DNA of 31,623 nt. Origin: Acidobacteriota bacterium (lineage in GTDB: Bacteria > Acidobacteriota > Polarisedimenticolia > Gp22-AA2). The notes below the pieces were generated by a model. The model was not told the origin of the DNA. It saw only the letters and a program-made list of their open reading frames with translations, and did not search any database. Within the stretch, counting starts at the first letter, position 1; every line of letters starts with the position of its first letter. Position numbers and translations under genes: made by a program. The stretch is from NCBI GenBank assembly GCA_041486695.1, contig JBGPLZ010000031.1, forward strand, positions 1 to 31,623, read 5' to 3'. This document shows positions 1 to 21,594 of this stretch, piece by piece.

Positions 1-540
1 ATCCGTTTGCTGGACCCCTTGGCGGTGCAGCTCACCGGCCAGCAACTCGGCCCGTCCGTGAGTCTCGCCGACGGCCTGGTGCTGGCGTCGCTTACGGAGA
101 ACACCGGCACCGTCTCCACGCTCGGCATCGTGCTGATGCTGGTCTGTCTGTTGCCGATTCCGTTCGGGCTCTGGCTCGTGTTCGCCCGCAACGCGAAGAC
201 GCGTCGCGGCCCGACGTGGGATTGCGGGCAACGCGGGCTGACGCCGCAGATGGAGTACACGGCGACGGGATTCTCGAAACCGATTCGCATGATCTTCAAG
301 GCGCTCTTCCAGCCGCGTCGCGAGGTCCAGCGCGAATACGACTTCTCGCCGCATTTCGCGACGAAGCTCCGATTCGAGAGCCATGTCGAGGAAGTGTTCG
401 TGCAGCGCCTGTACCGCCCGTTACGGATCTTGCTCCTGCGCGTATCCCGGCGGGTTCGGGTGCTCCAAGCGGGAAGCATTCACGCCTACCTGCTCTACAT
501 CTTCGTGACGCTCCTGTTGCTGTTGTTGTTTGCCCTATGA
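1..540 (+). CDS. C-terminal fragment of a HyfB/HycC-like (NuoL/MnhA-type) antiporter-like membrane subunit. The 5' end lies outside the window.
   Basis: The ORF runs in frame from position 1. Hydrophobic segments and a C-terminal motif '...WDCGQRGLTPQMEYTATGFSKP...YRPL...LQAGSIHAYLLYIFVTLLLLLL' match the C-terminus of formate-hydrogenlyase/hydrogenase-4 subunit B. Its stop overlaps the next start (ATGA). Confidence 0.6.
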   Translation: MRLLDPLAVQLTGQQLGPSVSLADGLVLASLTENTGTVSTLGIVLMLVCLLPIPFGLWLVFARNAKTRRGPTWDCGQRGLTPQMEYTATGFSKPIRMIFKALFQPRREVQREYDFSPHFATKLRFESHVEEVFVQRLYRPLRILLLRVSRRVRVLQAGSIHAYLLYIFVTLLLLLLFAL

Positions 541-1481
541 GCGTGAACGTGGTCTCCATCCTCGCCCAAACGGCCTTGCTGCTCTTGCTGGCGCCGCTGC
601 TGGGCGGGCTCATCAAGAACTGGAAGGCGAAGCTCCAGAATCGCCGGGGGCCGCGCATCTGGCAGCCGTACCACGACCTGATCAAGTTCCTGCGCAAGGA
701 CATGGTGATCTCCGAGCACGCCTCGTGGATCTTCTCGTTCACGCCGAACGTCGTGTTCCTGACCGCGCTTTCCGCCGGGCTGATGGTGCCGATGGTTACG
801 GCGCAAGCTCCGCTGAGCCTGTTCGGCGGGGTGTTGGCATTGGTCGGACTCATCGCGTTGGGACGTTTTTTTCTCGCATTGAGCGGACTCGACACCGCGA
901 GTGCGTTCGGCGGCATGGGGAGCAGCCGGGAGGTGACGATCGCCGCCATCGCCGAACCCGCGATGATGCTCGCCATCTTCACGGTCGCGATCACGGCGGG
1001 ATCGACGAACCTCAGCAGGATCGTCCTCGCCGGTCAGGGGCCGGGATCGACGCTTCTCGACCCGTCGCACGCGCTTGCGTTCATCGCGATGTTCATCGTG
1101 TTGCTCGCGGAGACCGGGCGCATCCCGGTGGACAACCCCGCCACGCATCTCGAGCTGACGATGATCCACGAAGCGATGCTTTTGGAGTATTCGGGCCGTT
1201 ACCTGGCGCTTCTCGAATGGGCGGCGCAGATGAAATTCTTTCTCTTCCTTGCGCTGCTCGCCAACCTGGCGCTGCCGTGGGGCGTGGCCCGCGAGCCGGC
1301 GCCCGGAGCCCTGGCGGTCGCGCTCGGGGCCCTGCTGCTGAAGCTCGCCGCCCTGGCGGTGGCGGTCGTCGTCCTCGAGACCAGGGTGGCCAAGCTGCGG
1401 CTGTTCCGCGTCCCGGAGCTCCTGGTGGTGTCGTTCCTGCTCGCGCTGCTCGCCGTGACCTCGTCGTTCCTGGTGCGCTGA
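537..1481 (+). CDS. HycD/HyfC-like membrane subunit (NuoH homolog) of a formate-hydrogenlyase-type / Ehr complex
   Basis: Start ATG at 537 overlaps the upstream stop (ATGA). The NuoH/HycD signature 'LQNRRGPRIWQPYHDLIKFLRKD' is present, with about 8 TM segments. The longer 216..1481 track ORF is an in-frame extension that overlaps the upstream gene. Confidence 0.8.
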   Translation: MSVNVVSILAQTALLLLLAPLLGGLIKNWKAKLQNRRGPRIWQPYHDLIKFLRKDMVISEHASWIFSFTPNVVFLTALSAGLMVPMVTAQAPLSLFGGVLALVGLIALGRFFLALSGLDTASAFGGMGSSREVTIAAIAEPAMMLAIFTVAITAGSTNLSRIVLAGQGPGSTLLDPSHALAFIAMFIVLLAETGRIPVDNPATHLELTMIHEAMLLEYSGRYLALLEWAAQMKFFLFLALLANLALPWGVAREPAPGALAVALGALLLKLAALAVAVVVLETRVAKLRLFRVPELLVVSFLLALLAVTSSFLVR

Positions 1482-1485
1482 TCCG

Positions 1486-2145
1486 ATGAACCCGGAGCTG
1501 TTCGCCCGCCTCGCGACCCTCGCCTCGAGCCTGGTGCTCCTGAGCGGCCTCGCCATCCTCTGGCGGCACAGCCTGCAGGCATATATCGGTGCCTTCGCGC
1601 GCCAGTCGTTCCTGCTGGTGGTCGCGACCCTGGTCGTCGCCGTGTCCTCGGGTGACCGCCGCCTCTATCTGGTCGCCGCGCTGATCTTCGCCGTCAAGGT
1701 CGTCGTGATCCCGCGTCTTCTGCGCCGGACGCAGGTACATGTCGCCGCCGACCTCGAGATCCACCCGTACGTCAACACGCCGGCCAGCCTGCTGATCGCC
1801 GGAGCCCTCACCCTCCTGGCGTACGTCGTCGCCGAGCCGCTGGTGGCGATCGGGGCGCTGCCGACGCGCGGCGGCATCCCGCTGGCTCTCGCGGTGGTCT
1901 TCCTGGGACTGTTCATCGTGATCAGCCGCCGCAGCGCCCTGACGCAGATCATCGGATTCCTGGTCCTGGAGAACGGCATCGCCCTGCTCGCGGTGCTCGC
2001 GACCTATGGCGTGCCCCTGATCGTCGAGCTCGGAGTCTTTCTCGATGTTCTCCTGGGAGTGCTGGTGATGCAGGTGTTCGTCTACCGCATACGCGAGACG
2101 TTCGACACCATCGACGTCGATCGGCTCCGGGATCTCAAGCATTGA
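1486..2145 (+). CDS. HyfE-like small polytopic membrane subunit (NuoK-related)
   Basis: 219-aa very hydrophobic protein lying between the HyfC-like and HyfF-like genes with 4-nt and 7-nt gaps. Size and position match HyfE. Confidence 0.55.
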   Translation: MNPELFARLATLASSLVLLSGLAILWRHSLQAYIGAFARQSFLLVVATLVVAVSSGDRRLYLVAALIFAVKVVVIPRLLRRTQVHVAADLEIHPYVNTPASLLIAGALTLLAYVVAEPLVAIGALPTRGGIPLALAVVFLGLFIVISRRSALTQIIGFLVLENGIALLAVLATYGVPLIVELGVFLDVLLGVLVMQVFVYRIRETFDTIDVDRLRDLKH

Positions 2146-2152
2146 GGGCGGC

Positions 2153-3619
2153 ATGATCCTGCCGATTCTGCTGGTCCTGCCTCTGGTGGCGGCGCTCTGG
2201 GCCCTTGGGGCTCCGCGCCGAGGGCCGCAGGCCGGCCGGGCCGGCGCCGCTCTGTCCGGGGCGGGGCTGCTCCTGGCGCTGGGGCTCGCCCGGCAGTGCC
2301 TCGCCGACGGAGAGGTCGGCTTCGGCGCCGGCCGGTTCCTGCGTGCCGACGCCCTCTCGGCGATCCTGGTCCTGGTCGTCTCGGGAGTGGCGTTCGTGGC
2401 GATCGCCTGCGGACGGGGTGAGATGGACCGGGCCCGGGCGGCGGGGACGATCGATGATGGCGTGGTGCGGCGCTACCACGCCCTCACGCAGCTGTTCGTG
2501 TTCACGATGCTTCTGACGGTTCTGGCCAACAACGTCGGAGTGATGTGGGTGGCGCTGGAGTCGACGACCATCATCACCGCCTTCCTCATCGGGTTGCGCG
2601 GCAGCAAAGAGGCGCTGGAGGCCTCCTGGAAGTACATTTTGATTGGCTCGATCGGCATCGCCCTGGCCTTTCTCGGCACCGTCCTGGCGTACTTCAATTT
2701 CGTGCAGCGGGTCGGCGAGATGCCGTTCGCCCTTCACTGGACCGTCCTTGCCCGGGTCGCGCCGGGCCTGGACCCGGACGTCCTGCGTCTCGCCTTCGTC
2801 TTCATCCTGGTCGGCTACGGCACCAAGGTCGGCCTCGCTCCGATGCATACCTGGCTCCCCGATGCCCACTCGGAGGCACCCGCGCCGATCTCCGCCATGA
2901 TGTCGGGGGCGCTGCTGGCCGTGGCTCTCTACGCCATCCTGCGCTGGAAGGTGGTGGTCGATGCCTGCGTCGGCTCGCTGTTCAGCGAGCGGATGCTGCT
3001 CCTGGTCGGGACGGGCTCCGTGATGCTCGCGGCGGTTCTCCTCGCCGGTCAGACGAGCTACAAGAGGATGCTGGCCTACTCGAGCGTCGAGCACATGGGT
3101 CTCTGCTGCCTCGGCCTCGCGTTGGGGCCGATCGGGACGCTGGCTGCCCTGCTGCATATCATGACCCACGCCGCCTCGAAATCGATGCTGTTCGTGGTCG
3201 CGGGCGATATCGCGGCGGGGTATCGCTCCGCCGCGATCGGCGCGGTGCGGGGCCTGGCGCGCGCGGTTCCCCGGACCGGCGGTCTCTTCCTGGTCGGCAT
3301 GCTCGCGCTGCTGGGCCTGCCACCTTTCGGCCTCTTCGTGTCGGAGTTCCTGCTGTTTCGGGCGGGCTTTCTGACGGGGCATCCCTGGGTGGCCGGACTC
3401 AATCTGGCGCTTCTGGTCTGGGCCTTCGTCTCGCTGCTCGGGGTGACCCAGAAGATGTGTTACGGCCCGCCGGCGCCGGGGGAACCACCGACGGAGCCGC
3501 CGCTCTCGGCGCGGGCGCCGCTGCTGCTCAACCTGGCCGTCCTGCTCGGGCTCGGGATCATGATCCCTCCGCCCCTCCTGGCGCTGCTGCGCCAGGCGAT
3601 GGAGATCGTCCACTCATGA
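2153..3619 (+). CDS. HyfF-like antiporter-type membrane subunit (NuoM/NuoN family)
   Basis: 488 aa and polytopic. The conserved NuoL/M/N motif 'MHTWLPDAHSEAPAPISAMMSGALL' is present. Confidence 0.8.
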   Translation: MILPILLVLPLVAALWALGAPRRGPQAGRAGAALSGAGLLLALGLARQCLADGEVGFGAGRFLRADALSAILVLVVSGVAFVAIACGRGEMDRARAAGTIDDGVVRRYHALTQLFVFTMLLTVLANNVGVMWVALESTTIITAFLIGLRGSKEALEASWKYILIGSIGIALAFLGTVLAYFNFVQRVGEMPFALHWTVLARVAPGLDPDVLRLAFVFILVGYGTKVGLAPMHTWLPDAHSEAPAPISAMMSGALLAVALYAILRWKVVVDACVGSLFSERMLLLVGTGSVMLAAVLLAGQTSYKRMLAYSSVEHMGLCCLGLALGPIGTLAALLHIMTHAASKSMLFVVAGDIAAGYRSAAIGAVRGLARAVPRTGGLFLVGMLALLGLPPFGLFVSEFLLFRAGFLTGHPWVAGLNLALLVWAFVSLLGVTQKMCYGPPAPGEPPTEPPLSARAPLLLNLAVLLGLGIMIPPPLLALLRQAMEIVHS

Positions 3620-3641
3620 TGTTTGTGGAGCCCCGATCACG

Positions 3642-5282
3642 ATGACCCTCAAGACGGCGCTCGAGAGCCTGGGAGCGCAGGCCTTCGTGGAACGCGGTCG
3701 GACGCTGCGGTGCGCCCTGCCGCGCGCGGCGATCCGATCCGCGGCCGAGATCCTGCTCGGGCGTTTCGAGCTCGATCTCGTCGTGATTCTGGCGAACGAT
3801 CGCCGTGGCGACCGCGCTCTGTTCGAGATCGTCTACCTGTTCTCCGAGTGGCGGGAGAACCGGTTCGTCGAGATCGTCGTCGATGTCCCGCCCGGCGACC
3901 CGACCTTTCCGTCGATCGCCACGCTCTCGTACCCCGCGTCGCGCTACGAACGGGAGATCCGCGACCAGTTCGGGCTGGTCCCCGCGGGCCACCCCGACCC
4001 GCGGCCGCTCGTCCGGCACGGCTTCTGGCCCGAGGACTACCATCCGCTGCGCAAGGACGCGCCGCCGCCGGGCGCCTTCAAGGACGATGGCCGCCCCTTT
4101 CCGTTCCAGCAGGTGGAGGGGGAGGGGATCTTCGAGATCCCGGTCGGTCCGGTCCACGCCGGCGTGATCGAGCCGGGCCATTTCCGTTTCAGCGTCGATG
4201 GCGAGACCATCGTCGACATGAAGGCCCGTCTCTACTACACGCACAAGGGAACCGAGAAGCTGTTCGAAGGGCGGCGCCCGGAGGAGGGGGTCGAGCTGGC
4301 CGAGCGGATCTCCGGCGACAGCTCGGTCGGGCACGCGCTCGCCTATTGCGAAGCGATCGAGGCGCTCGCCGGCGTCGGGGCGCCGCCGCGCGCCGCCGCC
4401 GCGCGCGTCGTGCTGCTCGAGATGGAGAGGATCTACAACCACATCGGCGACTTCGGGGCGATCGCCAACGACACCGGCTTCGCGGTGGCGCAGGCGCACG
4501 CCTTGCGGATCAGGGAGACCTTGCTGCGCCTCAACAAGCGCCTGACCGGGCACCGCCTGCTGCGCGGCCTGCTGACCCCGGGCGGGATCACCCGTGACCT
4601 GCCCGCCGAGCTGGCCGGCGTCGCGGGCGGCGCGGCAACGACGTCCGCCGGCGCGCGCCGCGGCGCGCCCCTGGTCGGCGCGCTGGAATCGATCCTGGCC
4701 GACTTCGAGGAGGTGGTGGCGCTCTGCCTCGACAACAGCATGCTGCGTGATCGGCTGCGCGGCGCCGGGACGCTGACAACCCGGACCGCTCTCGATCATG
4801 GGGTTCTGGGATGCGTCGCGCGCGCCTCGGGGATCGATCGCGACGCGCGCCGCGATCACCCCTGCGCCGCGTATGGCCGGCTGCGCTTCCGCGTGCCGGT
4901 CATGAGCTCGGGCGACGTGGAGGCGCGGGCGCTCATCCGCGTCGAGGAGGTGCGCGAATCGGTGGGCCTGATCCGCCAGGCCTTGACGGATCCGCTGGAG
5001 GGAACGGGGGATGGCGCGGACGCCGGGGAGAGCGAGCTGCGCACCAAGCTCCCGCCGCTCCCGCATCGGCAGAGCGGCTTCGGGCTCGTGGAAGGGTGGC
5101 GCGGCGCCATCCTCCACTGGGTGCTCGTCGACGGCGCCGGCCGGCTCGACCGCGTGAAGGTGAAGGACCCGTCGTTCGTCAACTGGCGGGCCCTGACCTT
5201 CGCGCTCCTCAAGAACATCGTCCCCGACTTCCCGCTCTGCAACAAGAGCTTCAATCTCTCCTACTCGGGGAATGATCTGTAG
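3642..5282 (+). CDS. HycE/HyfG-like large subunit (fused NuoC-NuoD fold) with all four [NiFe] cysteine ligands substituted and no C-terminal maturation tail; Ehr-type
   Basis: The N-terminal NuoC-like domain ('RYEREIRDQFGLVPAGHPDPRPLV...WPEDYHPLRKD') and the NuoD/large-subunit core ('IPVGPVHAGVIEPGHFRFSVDGETIVDMKARLYYTHKGTEKL') align closely to E. coli HycE as I recall it. At the HycE 'RVCGICGFAH' L1 position this protein has 'RISGDSSVGH'. At the C-terminal 'DPCYSCTDR' L2 position it has 'NLSYSGNDL', followed directly by the stop. Confidence 0.85.
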   Translation: MTLKTALESLGAQAFVERGRTLRCALPRAAIRSAAEILLGRFELDLVVILANDRRGDRALFEIVYLFSEWRENRFVEIVVDVPPGDPTFPSIATLSYPASRYEREIRDQFGLVPAGHPDPRPLVRHGFWPEDYHPLRKDAPPPGAFKDDGRPFPFQQVEGEGIFEIPVGPVHAGVIEPGHFRFSVDGETIVDMKARLYYTHKGTEKLFEGRRPEEGVELAERISGDSSVGHALAYCEAIEALAGVGAPPRAAAARVVLLEMERIYNHIGDFGAIANDTGFAVAQAHALRIRETLLRLNKRLTGHRLLRGLLTPGGITRDLPAELAGVAGGAATTSAGARRGAPLVGALESILADFEEVVALCLDNSMLRDRLRGAGTLTTRTALDHGVLGCVARASGIDRDARRDHPCAAYGRLRFRVPVMSSGDVEARALIRVEEVRESVGLIRQALTDPLEGTGDGADAGESELRTKLPPLPHRQSGFGLVEGWRGAILHWVLVDGAGRLDRVKVKDPSFVNWRALTFALLKNIVPDFPLCNKSFNLSYSGNDL

Positions 5283-5286
5283 ACCG

Positions 5287-8286
5287 ATGAGCCGCATGCG
5301 CAGGAGCCTCGTCGCCGCCGTTCTCCTCCTGGCGTCCTATGCCGTCATCTCGGTCCGGCGCCTCGAACCTGCCGATCGACTGTTCATCGCCGATGCGCCG
5401 CTCGTCGGCGTCGGACCGCGGCAGGTTCCGGCGGGATGGCGCTTCGTCCCGTGGCTCCTGGCCCGGGTGACCAGCTACCCCTCGACCCCCACCAAACTGC
5501 GCGTCGATCTGAGCGGAGCGCGGGCGGCCGCCAGCCGCGAAGGGGCGACGGTCGAGGTGGAGGTCGAGGTCACCTACGCCGTCGCGCCGGAGCGTCTGCT
5601 CGACCTGCACCGGGCGCACGGGCCGCGGTACGAAGCGTGGCTGGCCGAGGTGGTGGCCCGCACGGCGAGCGAGCGGATGAAGGAAGCCTCGTACGACGTC
5701 ATTCGCGATCGGGACGCCGAGTTCCAGCGGCGGGTCCAGAGCGAGGTGGCCGGGAGCGTCGCCAAGGATGGCCTCGAAGTGACGCGGCTCCGGATCATCC
5801 AGGTGGCCGCCGCCGGGGAGACCTCGGGGACGATCCTGAAGGCCGAGGGGGAGCCGCTGCAGCGCGAGGTCCTCCTGATCGGCGTCGACTCGTTCGACTG
5901 GCGGATCATCGATCCGCTGATGCGGGAGGGACGGATGCCGAACCTGGCGCGCCTGGTCGCCCGGGGCACCCGCGCCCACCTGCGCACCATCAGCCCGATC
6001 CTCTCGCCGGTCATCTGGACCAGCATTGCCACCGGGGTCAAGCCGTCACGCCACGGCATCGTCGACTTCGTGGTCGCCGCCCGCGACACCGGCGCGCTCA
6101 TGCCGGTGACGAGCGCCATGCGCCAGGTCCCGGCGCTCTGGACCCTCCTGAGCCGCCAGGGGATCGACGTCGATGTGATCGCCTGGTGGGCGACCTGGCC
6201 GGCCGAGACCGTGCGCGGCCGGATCGTGACCGATCGGGTCGCCTTCCAGCTCTTCGAGGAGCAGATGCAGGAGGATTGGAAGAGTGCCGACCCCGCCCGT
6301 GCCCGGGGCAAGACCTTCCCTCCCGAGCTGTTCGACGAGGTGCGGCCGATCATCAAGGCCCCTGCCGAAGTGAGCGATGAGGAGGTCGCGCGCTTCCTGC
6401 CGCCGGGCACGGTCGTTGCCTCCCTTAACGAAGACCGGCGGCATCAGCTTGACGAGTTCCGGACCATCCTGGCCGGGGGAGAGACTTACCATGCGGCGGC
6501 GCTCAAGCTGTTCCAGCCGGGGGCTCCGGGCCTGAAGATGATCTACTACGAAGGGCCGGACACTACCTCGCACCAGTTCATGCGCTACCGCCCGCCCCTT
6601 CTGCCGGGGGTCGACCCGTCGGACATGCGCCTGTTCGGCGGCATCGTCGACCGCTACTATGAGCTTCAGGATCGGTACCTCGGCGAGGTCATCGCGCGGG
6701 CCGGCAAGGACGCCACCATCCTGGTCGTCTCCGACCACGGCTTCAAGTCGGACAACAACCGGCCGCCGCACAGCGATCCGCGCATCGGCAAGGCGGACGC
6801 CGCCGAGTGGCATCTGCCGATCGGGGTCTTCGTGATGGCCGGTCCCGACGTGAGGCAGGGGTTCGATCTCGGCGCCGCCTCGGTGCTCGACGTGGCGCCG
6901 ACGATCCTGACGCTGTTCGGCCTGCCGGTGGCGCGCGACATGGACGGCCAGCCGCTGACCCAGGCCCTGACCGACGGCTTCCTCGCCGGCCGGCCGGTGC
7001 GCTGGGTCAATACCTACGGAGGGTTCAGACAGACCCCTCAGGAATCCGCCGCCGCCCCCTCGTCCGATGATGCCGAGATCATCGCCAAGCTCCGGAATAT
7101 CGGCTATATCGGGGACGAGCGGATGACGGCCCGCAACAACCGGGGGGTGATCGCTCTTGACGAAGGGGACGTCGATGGCGCCATCGCGGACTTCGAGCGG
7201 GCCCTCGAGAAGGGGGGGGATGCGGGCAACCTGGTGCGGACCAACCTCGCCCGCGCCTGGCTGCAGAAAGGCGATCGAGACAAGGCGCGCTCTCTCGCCG
7301 AGCAGGCGCTGGCGGAGAATCCGCGCAACAAGCAGGCCGAGACGATTCTTGCCGGCGTTGAGATGAAGGGGCAGAATTTCGAGGCCGCGGAGAAGCACCT
7401 GCGCCGCGCCATCGCCATCGACCCCACCTTCGTCCCGGCCCGCTCGCAGCTCGGCCGGCTGTACGCGAAACAGGAACGGTACAGCGAAGCTCTGGAGGAG
7501 TACCGGAAGGTGATCGAGATCGCCCCCCTCAGCGCCCCGGAGCATAACAGCATCGGCGAGATCTACCGCAAGCTGGGGCAGACGGAGAAGGCCATGGAGG
7601 CGTATCGCGAGGCGCTCCGCTGCGACGCCCAGTATTTCGGGGCCTATAACAATCTCGGGCTCCGTCTTCAAGAGAAGGGCAGGCTCGATGAAGCGAAGGC
7701 GCTGTACGAAAAGGGGCTGGCGATCCGGCCCGAGAATCCGATCCTGCGCAACAGCCTCGGGACGCTGCTGGCTCTCCAGGGGGATCGCGCCGGCGCCCTG
7801 AAGGAGTTCGAACGCGCCACGAAGGCCGATCCCGAGTGGCCGATCGCCGCCGGCAATCTGGCCACCCTGCTGTTCGAGGCGGGCCAATTCGAGGCGGCCC
7901 GGGGCGCCTTCGAGACCTGGGTCCGCCTGGAGCCCGCTGCGATCGAGGCGCGACTCGGGCTCGCATTGGAGCTGCTCATGATCGGGCGCCAGGACGAGGC
8001 GGTCGCTCAGTTCGGGGAAGTCCTGAGCCGGGATCCGCGCAACGTGCGGGCCCTCATCGCTCTCGGGGAGACTCTGGCGCGCCAGGACCATCTCGAGGCG
8101 GCCCAGGCGCGCCTCGAATCGGCGGCGCGGATCGACCCTCTTGTTCCGCGCATCCTGAACAGCCTCGGGGATGTCCTCCTGAGGCGAGGCCTGAAGCAGG
8201 AAGCGGGCGCGGCCCTTCGCAGGTCGCTGTCGGTCGATCCGAAGCAGCCGGAGATCAGACAGCGCCTCTCCGAAATCTCCAGATAG
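5287..8286 (+). CDS. Multidomain protein: N-terminal TM anchor, truncated SPFH/band-7 domain, type I phosphodiesterase/nucleotide pyrophosphatase (alkaline-phosphatase superfamily) domain, and about 10 C-terminal TPR repeats
   Basis: 'MSRMRRSLVAAVLLLASYAVISV' is a signal anchor. The SPFH-like block is 'VEVEVEVTYAVAPERLL...RLRIIQV'. NPP motifs are 'LLIGVDSFDW', 'SPVIWTSIATGVKPSRHGIVDF', 'YYEGPDTTSHQF' and 'ILVVSDHGFKSD', with the metal ligands D/D/H/D/H conserved and Ser in place of the Thr nucleophile. The C-terminus has repeated 34-aa TPR-like units. An alternative start at 5272 overlaps the upstream stop. Start 5287 is preferred because it gives a clean signal anchor. Confidence 0.75.
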   Translation: MSRMRRSLVAAVLLLASYAVISVRRLEPADRLFIADAPLVGVGPRQVPAGWRFVPWLLARVTSYPSTPTKLRVDLSGARAAASREGATVEVEVEVTYAVAPERLLDLHRAHGPRYEAWLAEVVARTASERMKEASYDVIRDRDAEFQRRVQSEVAGSVAKDGLEVTRLRIIQVAAAGETSGTILKAEGEPLQREVLLIGVDSFDWRIIDPLMREGRMPNLARLVARGTRAHLRTISPILSPVIWTSIATGVKPSRHGIVDFVVAARDTGALMPVTSAMRQVPALWTLLSRQGIDVDVIAWWATWPAETVRGRIVTDRVAFQLFEEQMQEDWKSADPARARGKTFPPELFDEVRPIIKAPAEVSDEEVARFLPPGTVVASLNEDRRHQLDEFRTILAGGETYHAAALKLFQPGAPGLKMIYYEGPDTTSHQFMRYRPPLLPGVDPSDMRLFGGIVDRYYELQDRYLGEVIARAGKDATILVVSDHGFKSDNNRPPHSDPRIGKADAAEWHLPIGVFVMAGPDVRQGFDLGAASVLDVAPTILTLFGLPVARDMDGQPLTQALTDGFLAGRPVRWVNTYGGFRQTPQESAAAPSSDDAEIIAKLRNIGYIGDERMTARNNRGVIALDEGDVDGAIADFERALEKGGDAGNLVRTNLARAWLQKGDRDKARSLAEQALAENPRNKQAETILAGVEMKGQNFEAAEKHLRRAIAIDPTFVPARSQLGRLYAKQERYSEALEEYRKVIEIAPLSAPEHNSIGEIYRKLGQTEKAMEAYREALRCDAQYFGAYNNLGLRLQEKGRLDEAKALYEKGLAIRPENPILRNSLGTLLALQGDRAGALKEFERATKADPEWPIAAGNLATLLFEAGQFEAARGAFETWVRLEPAAIEARLGLALELLMIGRQDEAVAQFGEVLSRDPRNVRALIALGETLARQDHLEAAQARLESAARIDPLVPRILNSLGDVLLRRGLKQEAGAALRRSLSVDPKQPEIRQRLSEISR

Positions 8287-17739: not shown

Positions 17740-20700
17740 ATGCAAGAGAGCCGATTTCGGATCCGCCCGCAGTGGCCCGCGGCCCTGCTTCTGGGCGCGG
17801 TCATGTCCATCGCCGGCCTCCCGGCCGGGCCGGCCGCGATCCGGACGGGCACCGCGGCCCCGGCGAACTCCACCAACCATCTGCTGGGGCAGACCAGTCC
17901 CTACCTTCTCGAGCACCTCGAGAACCCGGTTGACTGGTATCCATGGGGGGACGAGGCGCTGGCGCGCGCGCGCGACGAGGACAAGCCGATCTTCCTGTCG
18001 ATCGGTTACTCGGCCTGCCACTGGTGTCACGTCATGGCGCGGGAATCGTTCTCCGATGAGGAGATCGCCCGCCTGCTCAACCAGAGCTTTGTCGCCATCA
18101 AGGTCGATCGCGAGGAGCGGCCCGACCTGGACGCCATCTACATGGATGCGGTGGTGCTGATGACCGGCGGCGGCGGATGGCCGATGTCGGTCTTTCTGAC
18201 GCCCGATCTCGAGCCGTTCCACGGCGGGACCTATCTCCCCAGGGAGCAGTTCCGCGCCCTGCTGACCGGCATCGCCTCGACCTGGAAGGGCAACCGGGAT
18301 CAGGCGCTCGCGGTCGCCCGGCAGGTGCGCGAGAGGCTGGCGCGGCCGCCGACGCCGCCGGGTCCCTCCGGGGCCGTCCCGGCGGGGACGCTTGTCGACG
18401 GGGCGCTGGTCCAGTGGCGGGCCTCCTACGATCCGGTCCACGGAGGCTTCGGGGGCGCGCCGAAGTTCCCGTCCCCGCAGGCGCTCCAGCTGCTTCTCCG
18501 GGCGTCACGCGAGAACCGCTCTGCCCCGGCGCTCGAGATGGTGACGCGCAGCCTGGAAGCGATGGCCAACGGGGGCCTTTACGACCAGCTCGGGGGCGGG
18601 TTCCACCGCTACGCCACCGATGCGGCCTGGAGGGTGCCGCACTTCGAGAAGATGCTCTATGACAATGCCTTGCTCGCCCCGGTCTATCTCGAGGCCTGGC
18701 GGGCGACGGGACGCATCGAGTTCCGGCGGGTCGCGGAGGAGACGCTATCCTGGGTGGCGCGCGAGATGACCGACGCCCGCGGCGGGTTCTGCGCCAGCCT
18801 CGATGCCGACAGCGAGGGGGAGGAGGGCCGCTTCTACCTGTGGACGACGGCGGAGGTTCGGCGGGTCTTGGGCGATCGCGACGCCGCCTTCGCGATCGAC
18901 TACTTCGGCATGAGCGAGCGGGGCGATCTCCCCGGCGGGCGCAACGTCCTGCATGTTCGGTCGGCCCCGCCCGAGTTCGCGCCGGGGCACGGGATGAGCG
19001 ATGAGGCAGTGCGGGCGCGGGTCGTCGACCTCCGCGCCAAGCTGCTGGCGGCACGGAGCTCTCGCCCGCGTCCGCGCCGCGATGACAAGATTCTCACCGC
19101 CTGGAACGGCCTGATGATCTCGGCCTACGCCCGCGCCTACGCTCTCACCGGAGAGGTTCGCTACCGCGAAGCGGCGGCGCGCGCGGCGCGTTTCGCCCAG
19201 GACGCATTGCTCGATCGCGACGGCCGCGTCCTGGCGGTCTTCAGGCCGGGTGGGCAGGTCCCGCTGCCCGGCACCCTCGACGACTCCGCGTTTCTGGCGC
19301 GCGGCCTGCTCGACCTCTACGACGCCACGTCGACGCGCGCCTACCTCGAGGCTGCGAAGCGCATCGTGCATGACGCCGAGCGCTTCCTCGATCGGACTGC
19401 GGGAGGATACTTCTTCACCGCGGAGGATCGGCGACACTTGATCGTCAGGACCAAGAGCTTCGAGGATCAGGCGCTGCCATCGGGGAATGCCGTCCTTCTC
19501 GAATGCCAGACGCGTCTCGCTCGCGCCCTGGGTGACCCGACGCTGTTGCAGCCGGTGCGGCGCACGCTCGAGATCGCCGGTCCTGCGCTCCGCGCCGCGC
19601 CGGCCGGCTCGGCCGCGATGATCCTGGCGGCGTTGCAGCTGGATGCGCCGGAGTCGGCCGCTCCCCGGCCCGATGCGGCCGCGGCGCGCGCCCTCACGAT
19701 CTCGCTGCTCGCGACGCCTGCCCTGGCCGCGAGCCCCGCACCCGCCGCGGCTCCGCAGCCAAAGGGGACCGATGGGACCGGGGGAGGAGACCGGATCGTG
19801 CCCGGCGCCATCGTCGGCCGGGCCAATGCGCAGAAGGTCGTCGAGGCGTCCATCGCCGTCCCGGGCGGGACGGTGCGCCCCGGTCAGGCCGTCACGCTGT
19901 CGTTGCGGCTGGTGATCGCACCGGGGTGGCATATCAATTCGTCGCGTCCAACGCTCGACTACCTGATCGCGACCAGGCTCGCGTTCCCCGATCCCGCCGC
20001 AGTTCGGGTCGAAGAGATCGCCTACCCCGAAGGCTCGATCGTGCTCCTCGAGTTCGCCCAGGAGAAGCTCTCGGTCTATCAGGGGGCGACGACGATCAGG
20101 GCCACCGTCAGCCTGCCGCCGGAAGCGCCGCCGGGCCGGAGCGTGATCGCCGCCAGGCTGGTCTATCAGGCCTGCAGCGACAAGACCTGCCTCGCCCCCG
20201 AGACGATCGAGTTCCGGATCCCGGTCGACGTCGGCGGCGAGCCGGTGATGAGGACGCTGTCCCGCGTCGGTGAAAGCCCTTCGGACATCGAGGCTGCGGG
20301 GGCGCCGGCCGGAGGCAACGAAGGCGGCGCGCCGCCGACCGGCCGTGGCGGAGGGCTCGAGTCGCTCCTGGGACAGGGGCAGGGGGGCGAGGGGATCCAG
20401 GCGCTCCTCGATCGCCGCGGCCTCCTCGTGCTCCTCAGTCTGGTGTTCCTGGCCGGGCTGGCCCTGAACCTGACCCCCTGCGTCTACCCGATGATGCCGA
20501 TCACGATTGGCTTCTTCGCCAATCAGTCGCTCGGCAGCTGGGGGCGTCGGATCGGCCTGCCGGCCCTCTACGTCCTTGGGATGGCGGTGACCTACTCGAT
20601 TCTCGGCCTGGTGGCGGGACTGACCGGGACGCTGTTCGGCTCAACCCTGCAAAGTCCCCTCATCACCGGGGGGCTGGTGCTGATCTTCGTCATCATGGCG

Positions 20701-21594
20701 CTGTCGATGTTCGGATGGTTCGAGATCCAGATGCCGCGCTTCCTGACCCGCCTCAGCGGCGGCCGGCAGGGGACCCTCGGCGCCTTTCTGATGGGCCTGA
20801 CGATGGGGATCGCTGCGGCGCCCTGCATCGGCCCGTTCATCGTGCCGCTGCTGGCCTTCGTCGGGGTCTCGGGGAAGCCGATCCTGGGCTTCTGGCTGTT
20901 TTTCGTGATGGCGATCGGGATGGGGGTGCCGAACCTCTTTCTGGGTGCCTTCTCCGGCGCCATGGCGGCGCTGCCGCGCTCGGGCATCTGGTTGATCTAC
21001 GCCAAGAAGGTAATGGGCGTGGCCCTCCTGGCCGTGGCGCTCTATTTCCTGCAGCCGTTCCTGAAGGATCGCTGGCTCGGCGTCATCGCGCTCGGCTTCG
21101 CCGCCCTCTCGGGGCTCTATCTCGGTTTCCTGGATCGCACCCGGGTTGCCTCCGGTTGGTTCCGGCCGGTGAAAATCGGCATCGGGCTTCTGGTCCTCTC
21201 CGCCGGGGCGTGGGTGGCCGGGCCGCTTCTCCGCGCCCGGCCGGAGGTCGACTGGCGTCCTTACTCGCCAGAGATCCTCGAAGCGGCCAGGGCGGCGGGG
21301 CGGCCGGTGATCATCGACTTCGCCGCGGCCTGGTGCCTGCCGTGCAGAGAGCTCGAGCGCTTCACCTTCACCGATGCCCGCGTGCTCGTGGAGGCGGAGC
21401 GCTTCGCGCTTCTCAAGGCCGATCTCACTTCGTTCGAAGCGGCGCCGGTGCGCGAGATCCGGGCGCGCTTCGAGGTCGTGGGAGTACCGACCATCATCTT
21501 CATCGACGGCAAGGGAATCGAGAAAAGAGATCTCAGGGTGTACGGTTTCGAGGCGGCCGCCCGGTTCGTCGAGCGCATGCGGCAGGTCCGGTAG
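17740..21594 (+). CDS. Fusion protein: signal peptide + DUF255/YyaL thioredoxin-domain protein (SPATA20-like, with (alpha/alpha)6-barrel region) + complete thiol:disulfide interchange protein DsbD (alpha, TM beta and thioredoxin-like gamma domains)
   Basis: The DUF255 signature '[47 protein letters not shown]' is present. The DsbD-alpha-like block is '[22 protein letters not shown]...[18 protein letters not shown]'. The DsbD-beta Cys sites are '[18 protein letters not shown]' and '[17 protein letters not shown]'. The gamma domain has '[15 protein letters not shown]'. Total length is 1284 aa, roughly YyaL (~680) plus DsbD (~600). Confidence 0.8.

What the first reader, a model, noticed from the sequence alone, without database searches (positions are those of the whole stretch)
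1..5282. Ehr-type hydrogenase-related module: the large subunit has lost all NiFe ligands, and no small-subunit or ferredoxin genes follow
The operon hyfB'-hyfC-hyfE-hyfF-hycE/hyfG-like has the subunit order and sequence signatures of a group-4 formate-hydrogenlyase/hydrogenase-4 membrane arm plus large subunit. In the large-subunit homolog, the two CxxC metal-site motifs read 'RISGDSSVGH' (for RxCGxCxxxH) and 'NLSYSGNDL' (for DPCxxCxxR). The protein also stops immediately after this motif, so it has no HycI-cleavable tail. The next gene downstream is unrelated, so no NuoB-like small subunit or NuoI-like ferredoxin follows as in hyf/hyc operons. This matches the bioinformatically defined but biochemically uncharacterised 'Ehr' complexes proposed as links between complex I and group 4 hydrogenases. 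Their substrate and partner proteins are unknown.
Basis: partly seen in the sequence, partly recalled or inferred. Interest (0 to 1): 0.7.

Follow-up and report, generated by a model that had tools for sequence, protein, structure and literature searches.

The report
Ehr-type hydrogenase-like membrane complex operon
This is a contig-truncated copy of a widespread, already named but biochemically uncharacterised "Ehr" operon: a relative of formate-hydrogenlyase and complex I whose large subunit cannot bind nickel-iron. The small-subunit gene that seems to be missing almost certainly lies just beyond the contig end.

Summary
Window 1-5282 encodes hyfB' (C-terminal 179 aa only), hyfC, hyfE, hyfF and a 546-aa NuoC-NuoD/HycE-like protein. 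All four NiFe-ligand cysteines of that protein are replaced (RISGDSSVGH; NLSYSGNDL-stop), and it ends at the position aligned with the end of the HycE L2 motif.

It is an Ehr complex, a family already described in Geobacter, Nitrospira, ammonia-oxidising archaea, candidate-phyla-radiation (CPR) bacteria and M. tuberculosis (Rv0082-87), with unknown function.

The claimed lack of a small subunit is most likely a truncation artefact. The window is the whole contig and starts inside hyfB. In all 16 close relatives with upstream sequence, a NuoB-like gene with four Fe-S cysteines is the first gene of the operon. The absence of a NuoI-like ferredoxin is real for this clade.

Compared with 19 NiFe-bearing relatives, 139 Cys-less sequences differ at only six of the positions conserved in at least 90% of them: C->S224, D226, D277 (aligned with Nqo4 Asp139), P510, C->S540 and C->G543. 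Charged residues in the membrane subunits are conserved.

Best reading: a non-hydrogenase, complex-I-like ion-translocating module with one [4Fe-4S] cluster. Its substrates remain unknown. This is a new member of a known kind, of modest interest.

The parts
1..540 (+). 3' end of a hyfB-like (NuoL-type antiporter-like) gene: only the last 179 codons, cut by the contig end
   Evidence: NCBIfam NF005086 hydrogenase-4 subunit B, profile positions 497-666 of 669. Aligns to residues 546-678 of the 681-aa HyfB of L002.
537..1481 (+). hyfC-like (NuoH-like) membrane subunit, 314 aa. Its ATG overlaps the hyfB stop (ATGA).
   Evidence: NuoH models, E=3.9e-20. Junction sequence. Conserved in at least 90% of 69 homologues: E140, E192, R195, D199, H204, E206, E212, E217, K269, E281.
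1486..2145 (+). hyfE-like membrane subunit with a NuoK-like C-terminal half, 219 aa
   Evidence: NF008556 hydrogenase-4 membrane subunit, E=1.4e-29; Pfam Oxidored_q2, E=1.2e-5. 76% identical to the L002 homologue.
2153..3619 (+). hyfF-like antiporter-like subunit (NuoM/N type), 488 aa
   Evidence: NF005044 hydrogenase-4 subunit F, E=8e-124; Pfam Proton_antipo_M. E136, K225, K343 and E398 conserved in at least 92% of 75 homologues. The Lys that aligned NuoM-type chains carry in the '[14 protein letters not shown]' stretch (taken to be the TM8 lysine from my own knowledge of complex I) is Ala here.
3642..5282 (+). Ehr large subunit: fused NuoC-like (aa 28-143) and NuoD/HycE-like (aa 165-546) protein without NiFe ligands
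   Evidence: Pfam Complex1_30kDa, Complex1_49kDa and NiFeSe_Hases. HycE 7z0s_E, E=7.5e-66. Foldseek top hit 7z0s_E, TM 0.71.
4305..4334 (+). Remnant of the L1 motif, RISGDSSVGH: Cys->Ser224, Cys->Ser227, and the family-specific Asp226
   Evidence: S224 in 91% and D226 in 95% of 139 Cys-less relatives; Cys in all 19 NiFe relatives.
4470..4472 (+). Asp277 codon, a family-specific aspartate at the position of Nqo4 Asp139
   Evidence: D in 93% of Cys-less relatives, G in 79% of NiFe relatives, D in T. thermophilus Nqo4.
5253..5282 (+). Remnant of the L2 motif, NLSYSGNDL, plus the stop codon: Cys->Ser540, Cys->Gly543. The protein ends one residue after the Asp aligned with the final Asp of HycE's DPCYSCTD.
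   Evidence: S540, Y541, G543 and D545 are in 100% of 139 relatives. Nearly all relatives end with this same motif, most often ..GNDL.

Best explanation
Window 1-5282 is the 3' five-sixths of a six-gene Ehr (energy-converting-hydrogenase-related) operon from an Acidobacteriota (Polarisedimenticolia-like) genome. The full operon in this clade is S (NuoB-like, one [4Fe-4S]) - HyfB - HyfC - HyfE - HyfF - L (NuoCD-like). The S gene and about 1.5 kb of hyfB lie beyond the contig end.

Shown:
- L cannot ligate NiFe, and it ends at the position aligned with the end of the HycE L2 motif, so it has no tail for an endopeptidase to remove.
- The remodelled site is under strong purifying selection (Ser224, Asp226, Ser/Thr227, Asp277, Ser540, Gly543).
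- The NuoH-like and antiporter-like subunits keep their conserved charged residues.
- In relatives, S keeps the four ligands of the N2-equivalent cluster.
- No NuoI-like ferredoxin and no dedicated donor module is linked to the operon.

Inferred: the complex is not a hydrogenase. It is a minimal complex-I-like coupling device. The single cluster of S exchanges electrons with a soluble donor such as a ferredoxin. It passes them to a substrate bound in the Asp/Ser-lined pocket at the L/S/HyfC interface, most plausibly menaquinone in quinone-bearing lineages such as this one. The charge change there drives H+ or Na+ movement through HyfC, HyfE, HyfF and HyfB.
For: Identity as Ehr:
- homology of every subunit; no ligand Cys, no tail; 139 relatives share the motif.
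- Literature naming such complexes Ehr: PMC6349859, PMC10284858, PMC12342949, PMC3569383, PMC6728331.

Small subunit upstream:
-. All close relatives with upstream sequence are S-first, and L002 is syntenic on the downstream side too.

Redox competence:
- S has CxxC...C...CPP in 70 of 77 homologues, aligned to the corresponding cysteine motifs of HycG and MbhJ.

Selection on the site and the pump:
- Among the positions conserved in at least 90% of the Cys-less group, only six separate it from the NiFe relatives. They include two gained aspartates, one of them matching Nqo4 Asp139.
- Conserved membrane charges in HyfC, HyfE and HyfF.

No donor module:
- The only conserved neighbour is an ArsR-type regulator.
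- There are no ferredoxin motifs in S-first operons.

The taxa of the S-first, Cys-retaining clade are mostly aerobes with quinones (my own knowledge): Acidobacteriota, Chloroflexota, Methylomirabilota, Actinomycetota.
Against: - No biochemical data exist for any Ehr. The literature gives only expression data (PMC7894505, PMC12342949, PMC6901956).
- The quinone ligands of NuoD are not retained: His38 is Ile176 and Tyr87 is Gly225.
- Family members occur in organisms that, to my knowledge, lack quinones (Acetobacterium, CPR).
- CPR-type members have lost three of the four Fe-S cysteines yet keep the L signature. The conserved core function may therefore not need electron transfer.
- With no NuoI-like subunit, the route of electrons to the cluster is unknown.
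- The S gene of this particular genome has not been seen.
- The AlphaFold model is unreliable exactly at the site-forming loops, so the pocket geometry is untested.
Confidence: 0.6

Rival explanations
1. Redox-independent transporter. The complex works as an Mrp-like cation/proton antiporter or ion-homeostasis device. The peripheral L/S cap is a structural plug or regulatory (for example redox- or metal-sensing) element rather than a catalytic site.
For: - CPR-type loci L039, L042, L044, L055 and L056 have lost three of four Fe-S cysteines but keep ERISGDSS..H and NKSFNLSYSGNDL.
- There is no electron-input module or ferredoxin in S-first operons.
- The new invariant residues are hard-ligand, proton-relay types (Asp, Ser, Thr, Asn), not redox ligands.
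- The conserved neighbour is an ArsR-type regulator.
- A related six-gene 'group 4f' cluster is strongly induced by acid stress in Methylocystis (bioRxiv 10.1101/2025.08.29.672306).
Against: - 70 of 77 small subunits, including all close relatives of this window, keep all four cluster ligands across very distant phyla. This argues for a needed Fe-S cluster.
- S-last members even carry an extra 2x[4Fe-4S] domain next to S.
- Mrp antiporters work without any NuoB/NuoD-like cap (established knowledge), so keeping a 700-aa cap needs a reason.
Confidence: 0.27
2. One reading: in this genome the complex truly has no small subunit and no Fe-S cofactor at all, and consists of the membrane arm plus the large subunit only.
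For: No NuoB-like gene or ferredoxin motif anywhere in the 31.6-kb window. The gene after L is unrelated.
Against: - The window starts inside hyfB.
- Every close relative with upstream sequence has the S gene directly before hyfB.
- The nearest relative, L002, is collinear with the window through L, the phosphodiesterase/TPR gene and the OMP gene, and it has S upstream.
Confidence: 0.04
3. A decaying hydrogenase (pseudogenised large subunit), or a cryptic hydrogenase that uses shifted ligands.
For: Loss of all four ligand cysteines.
Against: - Open reading frames are intact and closely spaced: hyfB-hyfC overlap in ATGA, and the other junctions have gaps of 4, 7 and 22 nt.
- The replacement residues are themselves 91-100% conserved over 139 sequences from bacteria and archaea.
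- There are no cysteines near the site and no alternative frame.
- Family members occur in M. tuberculosis, which lacks NiFe maturation genes according to PMC6728331.
- Ehr gene expression in N. moscoviensis did not increase in the presence of H2 (PMC12342949).
Confidence: 0.02

Closest known systems
Ehr (Ech/energy-converting-hydrogenase-related) complexes: Geobacter sulfurreducens EhrA-D,L,S (GSU0739-45), the M. tuberculosis Rv0082-Rv0087 'hyc' locus, and Nitrospira, AOA and CPR Ehr
   Same: - Six-subunit make-up: NuoL-like, NuoH-like, HyfE-like, a second antiporter-like subunit, and large and small subunits.
- The large subunit lacks the CxxC motifs.
- Function unknown (PMC7894505, PMC6728331, PMC10284858, PMC10432482, PMC7304191, PMC12342949).
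- Mycobacterial loci L041, L045, L046, L053 and L057 have the same S-first order, the same L motifs and an upstream ArsR-type regulator. The annotated M. tuberculosis order Rv0082..Rv0087 behind regulator Rv0081 matches this (PMC6901956).
   Different: - Gene order: S-first here, against S-last in Nitrospirota, archaea and Bacillota.
- S-last members often carry a 2x[4Fe-4S] domain at S, which this clade lacks.
- The window copy has two private insertions in L (aa 326-341 and 456-463).
Cys-bearing 'Ehr'/group 4f-like [NiFe] hydrogenases of Bacillota (e.g. Desulfotomaculum ruminis Desru_3260-3265)
   Same: Same set of subunits and 39-42% identity in L (L062 Thermincola, L071, L075 Desulfotomaculum, L083). 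Nearly all conserved scaffold residues are shared.
   Different: - They keep ERICGACS..H and ELCY[SA]C.DR, so they may be true hydrogenases (PMC3569383).
- Their small subunit follows L and is preceded by ferredoxin motifs.
E. coli formate hydrogenlyase / hydrogenase-4 (group 4a; HycE, HycG, HycC, HycD; Hyf)
   Same: Best solved-structure match for L (7z0s_E, E=7.5e-66; Foldseek TM 0.71) and for S (7z0s_G, E=4.5e-41). The hyfB-C-E-F-G gene order matches.
   Different: - No NiFe ligands and no C-terminal tail.
- No HycF/HyfH (NuoI-like), HycB/HyfA or FdhF partners.
- S is upstream, not downstream.
- All NCBIfam Hyf hits fall below the curated equivalog cut-offs.
Respiratory complex I core (NuoB, NuoCD, NuoH, NuoJ/K, NuoL/M/N)
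   Same: - A Cys-less NuoD-like subunit fused to NuoC, as in E. coli NuoCD.
- A single N2-position cluster in the NuoB-like subunit.
- Asp277 at the position of Nqo4 Asp139.
- Conserved Glu/Lys in the antiporter-like subunits.
   Different: - His38 and Tyr87 of Nqo4 are not retained (Ile176, Gly225).
- No NuoI, NuoE, NuoF or NuoG.
- Only two antiporter-like subunits.
- S has the hydrogenase-type CxxC rather than NuoB's adjacent Cys-Cys.

Membership tests
Ehr complex | Large subunit homologous to the group 4 [NiFe]-hydrogenase large subunit / NuoD | tested here: met
   Pfam PF00346, PF00329 and PF00374. HycE E=7.5e-66. Foldseek 7z0s_E TM 0.71.
Ehr complex | The four NiFe-ligating cysteines (L1 and L2 CxxC) are absent | tested here: met
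   S224, S227, S540 and G543 stand at the four positions. No Cys nearby and no alternative frame.
Ehr complex | Operon with NuoH-like, HyfE-like and NuoL/M/N-like membrane subunits | tested here: met
   The start/stop junctions are overlapping or closely spaced.
Ehr complex | NuoB-like small subunit encoded in the same operon | not testable with these tools
   The contig ends inside hyfB. The subunit is present as the first gene in all 16 close relatives with upstream sequence, so it is expected about 1.5 kb upstream of position 1.
Group 4 [NiFe]-hydrogenase (4a/4f) | L1 RxCGxCxxxH and L2 DPCxxCxxR/H cysteine ligands | tested here: not met
   RISGDSSVGH and NLSYSGNDL.
Group 4 [NiFe]-hydrogenase (4a/4f) | C-terminal extension removed by a maturation endopeptidase (HycI type) | tested here: not met
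   The stop codon follows directly after the L2 remnant.
Group 4 [NiFe]-hydrogenase (4a/4f) | NuoI-like 2x[4Fe-4S] subunit feeding the small subunit | tested here: not met
   No CxxCxxCxxxCP motif in the window or in S-first operons of relatives.
Respiratory complex I (NuoD/Nqo4 quinone site) | Quinone head-group ligands Nqo4 His38 and Tyr87 | tested here: not met
   The aligned residues are Ile176 and Gly225, in both the phmmer and the MAFFT alignment.
Respiratory complex I (NuoD/Nqo4 quinone site) | Asp139 of Nqo4 (partner of His38) | tested here: met
   Asp277. D in 93% of Cys-less relatives, against G in the NiFe relatives.
Respiratory complex I | NADH-input module (NuoE, F, G) and NuoI | tested here: not met
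   Absent from the window and from the operons of relatives.

The most novel reading that the evidence does not exclude
The S-first Ehr clade, to which this operon belongs, may be a minimal single-cluster relative of complex I. Its former NiFe pocket, rebuilt around two gained aspartates (Asp226, and Asp277 aligned with Nqo4 Asp139) plus Ser/Thr, would bind a new substrate or a cation. That pocket would couple its charge state to H+/Na+ pumping without any NuoI, flavin or NiFe cofactor. This would be a living intermediate between group 4 hydrogenases and complex I, whose chemistry (for example ferredoxin:menaquinone oxidoreduction) has not been described. The series seen here would then record stepwise cofactor loss: NiFe + ferredoxin-S, then ferredoxin-S, then S only, then no cluster (CPR).
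Probability: 0.35. Interest if true: 0.65.

Novelty: new member of a known kind. Interest (0 to 1): 0.3.

Why it matters
Ehr complexes are very widespread. This scan found more than 600 matching stretches in species-representative genomes, including Mycobacterium, Streptomyces, Nitrospira and ammonia-oxidising archaea. They are regularly mis-annotated as formate hydrogenlyase or NuoC, and no substrate is known for any of them.

This window adds only one more, truncated, member, so it does not make the open question more testable.

What the follow-up adds:
- A correction: the small subunit is upstream, not absent.
- A compact family signature that could guide mutagenesis in culturable members: Ser224, Asp226, Asp277, Pro510, Ser540, Gly543, and a fixed C-terminus.

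Tried and rejected
- An exact-sequence contig look-up for L found nothing, although the cluster search shows the same protein on a 31623-base contig. No upstream DNA could therefore be fetched for this genome, and relatives were used instead.
- A neighbour analysis of 84 loci (4 kb either side) looked for a conserved electron-donor partner such as formate dehydrogenase, CODH, NuoEF or ferredoxin. It found only an ArsR-type regulator.
- A neighbour-joining tree of 163 L sequences, with HycE and Nqo4 added, puts all NiFe-bearing sequences in one contiguous block of the leaf order. With so distant an outgroup it cannot settle whether the Cys-less group is monophyletic, so I draw no conclusion about one loss versus several.
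- The AlphaFold2 model of L from a shallow 16-sequence alignment has mean pLDDT 67. It falls below 50 exactly at 123-200, 375-424 and 513-546, the loops that build the site. It was used only for a fold match, not for geometry.
- Frameshift rescue of a CxxC plus tail is rejected.
- A NuoB or ferredoxin gene elsewhere in the window is rejected (the other large ORFs are OMP, asparagine synthase, a DsbD fusion, a PLP enzyme and GyrA).
- Literature searches for an Ehr structure or assay found none. Marreiros et al. 2013 is not held in the library.


Full report
**What is in the window**

The plus strand of 1-5282 carries five closely spaced genes:
- 1-540: the last 179 codons of a hyfB-like gene. 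It matches NCBIfam hydrogenase-4 subunit B at profile positions 497-666 of 669.
- 537-1481: a NuoH/HyfC-like gene.
- 1486-2145: a HyfE-like gene.
- 2153-3619: a HyfF-like antiporter-type gene.
- 3642-5282: a 546-aa fusion of a NuoC-like and a NuoD/HycE-like domain.

These assignments rest. All NCBIfam Hyf and Nuo hits lie below the curated equivalog cut-offs. The proteins are therefore relatives of these families, not orthologues. GC content is about 68% throughout.

- The best solved-structure match of the large subunit is E. coli HycE (7z0s_E, E=7.5e-66). In that alignment RISGDSSVGH lies opposite RVCGICGFAH, and NLSYSGND lies opposite DPCYSCTD.
- Direct translation confirms the two motifs at nt 4305-4334 and 5253-5282. 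The stop codon follows directly after the second motif. There is therefore no tail for a HycI-type protease.
- The protein has six cysteines, none at a ligand position. Neither alternative frame offers a CxxC or an extension.
- Downstream lies an unrelated 1004-aa phosphodiesterase/TPR protein.
- The rest of the window holds an OMP, asparagine synthase, a DsbD fusion, a PLP enzyme and GyrA. It contains no NuoB-like sequence and no CxxCxxCxxxCP motif in any frame.

**The "missing" small subunit is a truncation artefact**

- The protein database holds this exact protein on a contig of 31623 bases, so the window is the whole contig. It begins about 500 codons into hyfB.
- Four relatives on longer contigs were examined: L001; L002 from a Polarisedimenticolia MAG, 72% identical in L; L003 from Kouleothrix; and L004. 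All show the same self-contained six-gene operon: NuoB-like (171-175 aa) - HyfB - HyfC - HyfE - HyfF - L.
- L002 is also collinear with the window downstream of L, through the phosphodiesterase/TPR gene and the OMP gene.
Mapping the six subunits onto all 84 loci shows two layouts.
  - S-first: every close relative of the window with upstream sequence (L001-L011, L013, L015-L018), the Actinomycetota including Mycobacterium and Streptomyces, and CPR bacteria.
  - S-last: Nitrospirota, archaea, Bacillota and Vicinamibacteria.
- The S proteins of L001 and L002 read ...DAGSCNGCE...VGDCA...GCPP. These cysteines align with the corresponding cysteine motifs of HycG and MbhJ.
- Across 77 S homologues, 70 keep all four cysteines.
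- The window's operon therefore almost certainly begins with an Fe-S-bearing small subunit about 1.5 kb upstream of position 1.
- The lack of a NuoI-like ferredoxin, by contrast, is real. Ferredoxin motif pairs occur only in S-last operons, directly upstream of or fused to S, and never in S-first operons.

**The family**

- The word-indexed search gave 6806 hits at E<=1e-10. The exhaustive search of 50%-identity representatives gave 8718 at E<=0.001 and 1110 at E<=1e-30.
- Of 163 aligned full-length sequences, 139 have Ser/Ala - x - Ser - Gly at the four ligand positions and 19 keep at least the first three ligand cysteines (17 keep all four).
- Nearly all Cys-less sequences end with the same motif, most often NKSFN[LQ]SY[SA]GNDL.
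- The Cys-bearing sequences are mostly from Bacillota (Thermincola, Desulfotomaculum, Peptococcaceae). This matches the published note that D. ruminis "EhrL" keeps its four cysteines (PMC3569383).
- In the tree's leaf order the NiFe-bearing sequences sit together in one block. The root cannot be resolved, so I do not claim a single loss.

**What changed and what did not**

At least 90%-conserved positions of the 139 Cys-less sequences were compared with the 19 NiFe-bearing ones.
- Almost the whole scaffold is shared: Glu177, His180 and Arg182 of the EPGHFR motif, Glu205, Arg255, Glu260, Arg263, Arg305, Arg371, Asp401, Asp425, Arg487, Asp529, Asn534, Lys535, Tyr541 and Asp545.
- Among those positions the two groups differ at only six, apart from two where the same residue is merely less frequent in the NiFe group: Cys->Ser224, Ala/Ile->Asp226, Gly->Asp277, Ala->Pro510, Cys->Ser540 and Cys->Gly543.
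- Asp277 aligns with Asp139 of T. thermophilus Nqo4 in both the phmmer and the MAFFT alignment. From my own knowledge of complex I, that residue pairs with His38 in the quinone site.
- The positions of Nqo4 His38 and Tyr87 are Ile176 and Gly225. The canonical quinone ligands are therefore absent.
- The replaced site is under purifying selection, so it is not decaying.
- The membrane subunits also keep conserved charged residues. HyfF keeps Glu136, Lys225, Lys343 and Glu398. HyfC keeps Glu140, Glu192, Arg195, Asp199, His204, Glu206, Glu212, Glu217, Lys269 and Glu281.
- In HyfF, an Ala stands where the aligned NuoM-type chains carry a Lys, which I take to be the TM8 lysine.

**Context**

The only neighbour conserved across phyla is an ArsR-type regulator just upstream. 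It occurs in 32 loci, including the mycobacterial ones. No formate dehydrogenase, CODH or NuoEF module is linked to the operon.

**Literature**

- Such complexes are known as Ehr. They are described as related to group 4 (4f or 4a) hydrogenases, lacking the CxxC motifs, and of unknown function.
- They have been reported in Margulisbacteria and relatives (PMC6349859), comammox Nitrospira (PMC10284858), about half of Nitrospirales genomes, where expression in N. moscoviensis did not rise in the presence of H2 (PMC12342949), ammonia-oxidising archaea (PMC10432482) and CPR bacteria (PMC7304191).
- In Geobacter, all detected subunits are more abundant on formate (PMC7894505).
[quoted passage not shown] Its gene list, Rv0082 through hycE behind the regulator Rv0081 (PMC6901956), matches the S-first layout found here in other mycobacteria.

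**How it most likely works**

- Shown: the protein cannot be a NiFe hydrogenase. The pump-type subunits and the N2-position cluster (in relatives) are conserved. The input chain is reduced to a single cluster.
- Inferred, with about 0.4 probability for this mechanistic part: a minimal complex-I-like redox-driven ion pump. A soluble donor reduces the S cluster directly. Electrons go to an acceptor in the Asp/Ser pocket at the L/S/HyfC interface, perhaps menaquinone in quinone-bearing lineages such as Acidobacteriota.
- Main rival, about 0.27: a redox-independent ion transporter with a structural or regulatory cap. This is suggested by CPR-type members that lost three of four Fe-S cysteines yet keep the L signature.
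- The structure model could not help here. Its confidence collapses at the site-forming loops. It only confirms the HycE/NuoCD fold.

**Verdict**

The finding is a new, truncated member of a known and widespread but biochemically uncharacterised family, of modest interest.

Noticed in passing
window 5272-8286 (+): A 1004-aa protein combining a weak SPFH/Band-7 match, a type-I phosphodiesterase/AlkP-like domain and a long TPR array. Its first ATG overlaps the stop of the Ehr large subunit. It is syntenic only in the closest relative, L002 (67% identity), so it is not part of the Ehr operon elsewhere.
   Followed up: partly
window 17740-21594 (+); L001 18921-19789: A 1284-aa fusion of DUF255/thioredoxin, DsbD_N, DsbD_TM and C-terminal thioredoxin domains. 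A 1267-aa protein with the same make-up lies about 9 kb downstream of the Ehr operon in L001.
   Followed up: no
window 4617-4664 and 5007-5030 (L residues 326-341 and 456-463): Two Gly/Ala-rich insertions private to this copy of the large subunit. These columns are gaps in at least 95% of 139 relatives. They fall in variable loops and have low model confidence.
   Followed up: partly
L039, L042, L044, L055, L056 (CPR/Patescibacteria-type and allied MAGs): The small subunit has lost three of the four [4Fe-4S] cysteines (for example GDPP instead of GCPP), while the large subunit keeps the Ehr signature. This would be an Ehr with no predicted redox cofactor at all.
   Followed up: partly
L032, L033, L036, L043, L051, L061, L062, L071, L075, L078, L079, L083, L084: In operons where the small subunit follows L, one or two CxxCxxCxxxCP motifs sit directly upstream of, and probably fused to, the NuoB-like domain (S reading frames of 170-350 aa). 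This holds for both NiFe-bearing and Cys-less members.
   Followed up: partly
L066 and L073 (Nitrospirota); L008, L032, L051: Two complete Ehr operons in tandem in two Nitrospirota genomes, and a duplicated HyfB-like gene at the head of the operon in three other loci.
   Followed up: no
32 loci including L003, L007, L009, L019, L041, L053 (upstream of the S gene): An ArsR-type HTH regulator immediately upstream on the same strand is the only neighbour conserved from Methylomirabilota and Chloroflexota to Mycobacterium. It corresponds in position to Rv0081 of M. tuberculosis. It is absent from the nearest acidobacterial relatives L001 and L002.
   Followed up: partly
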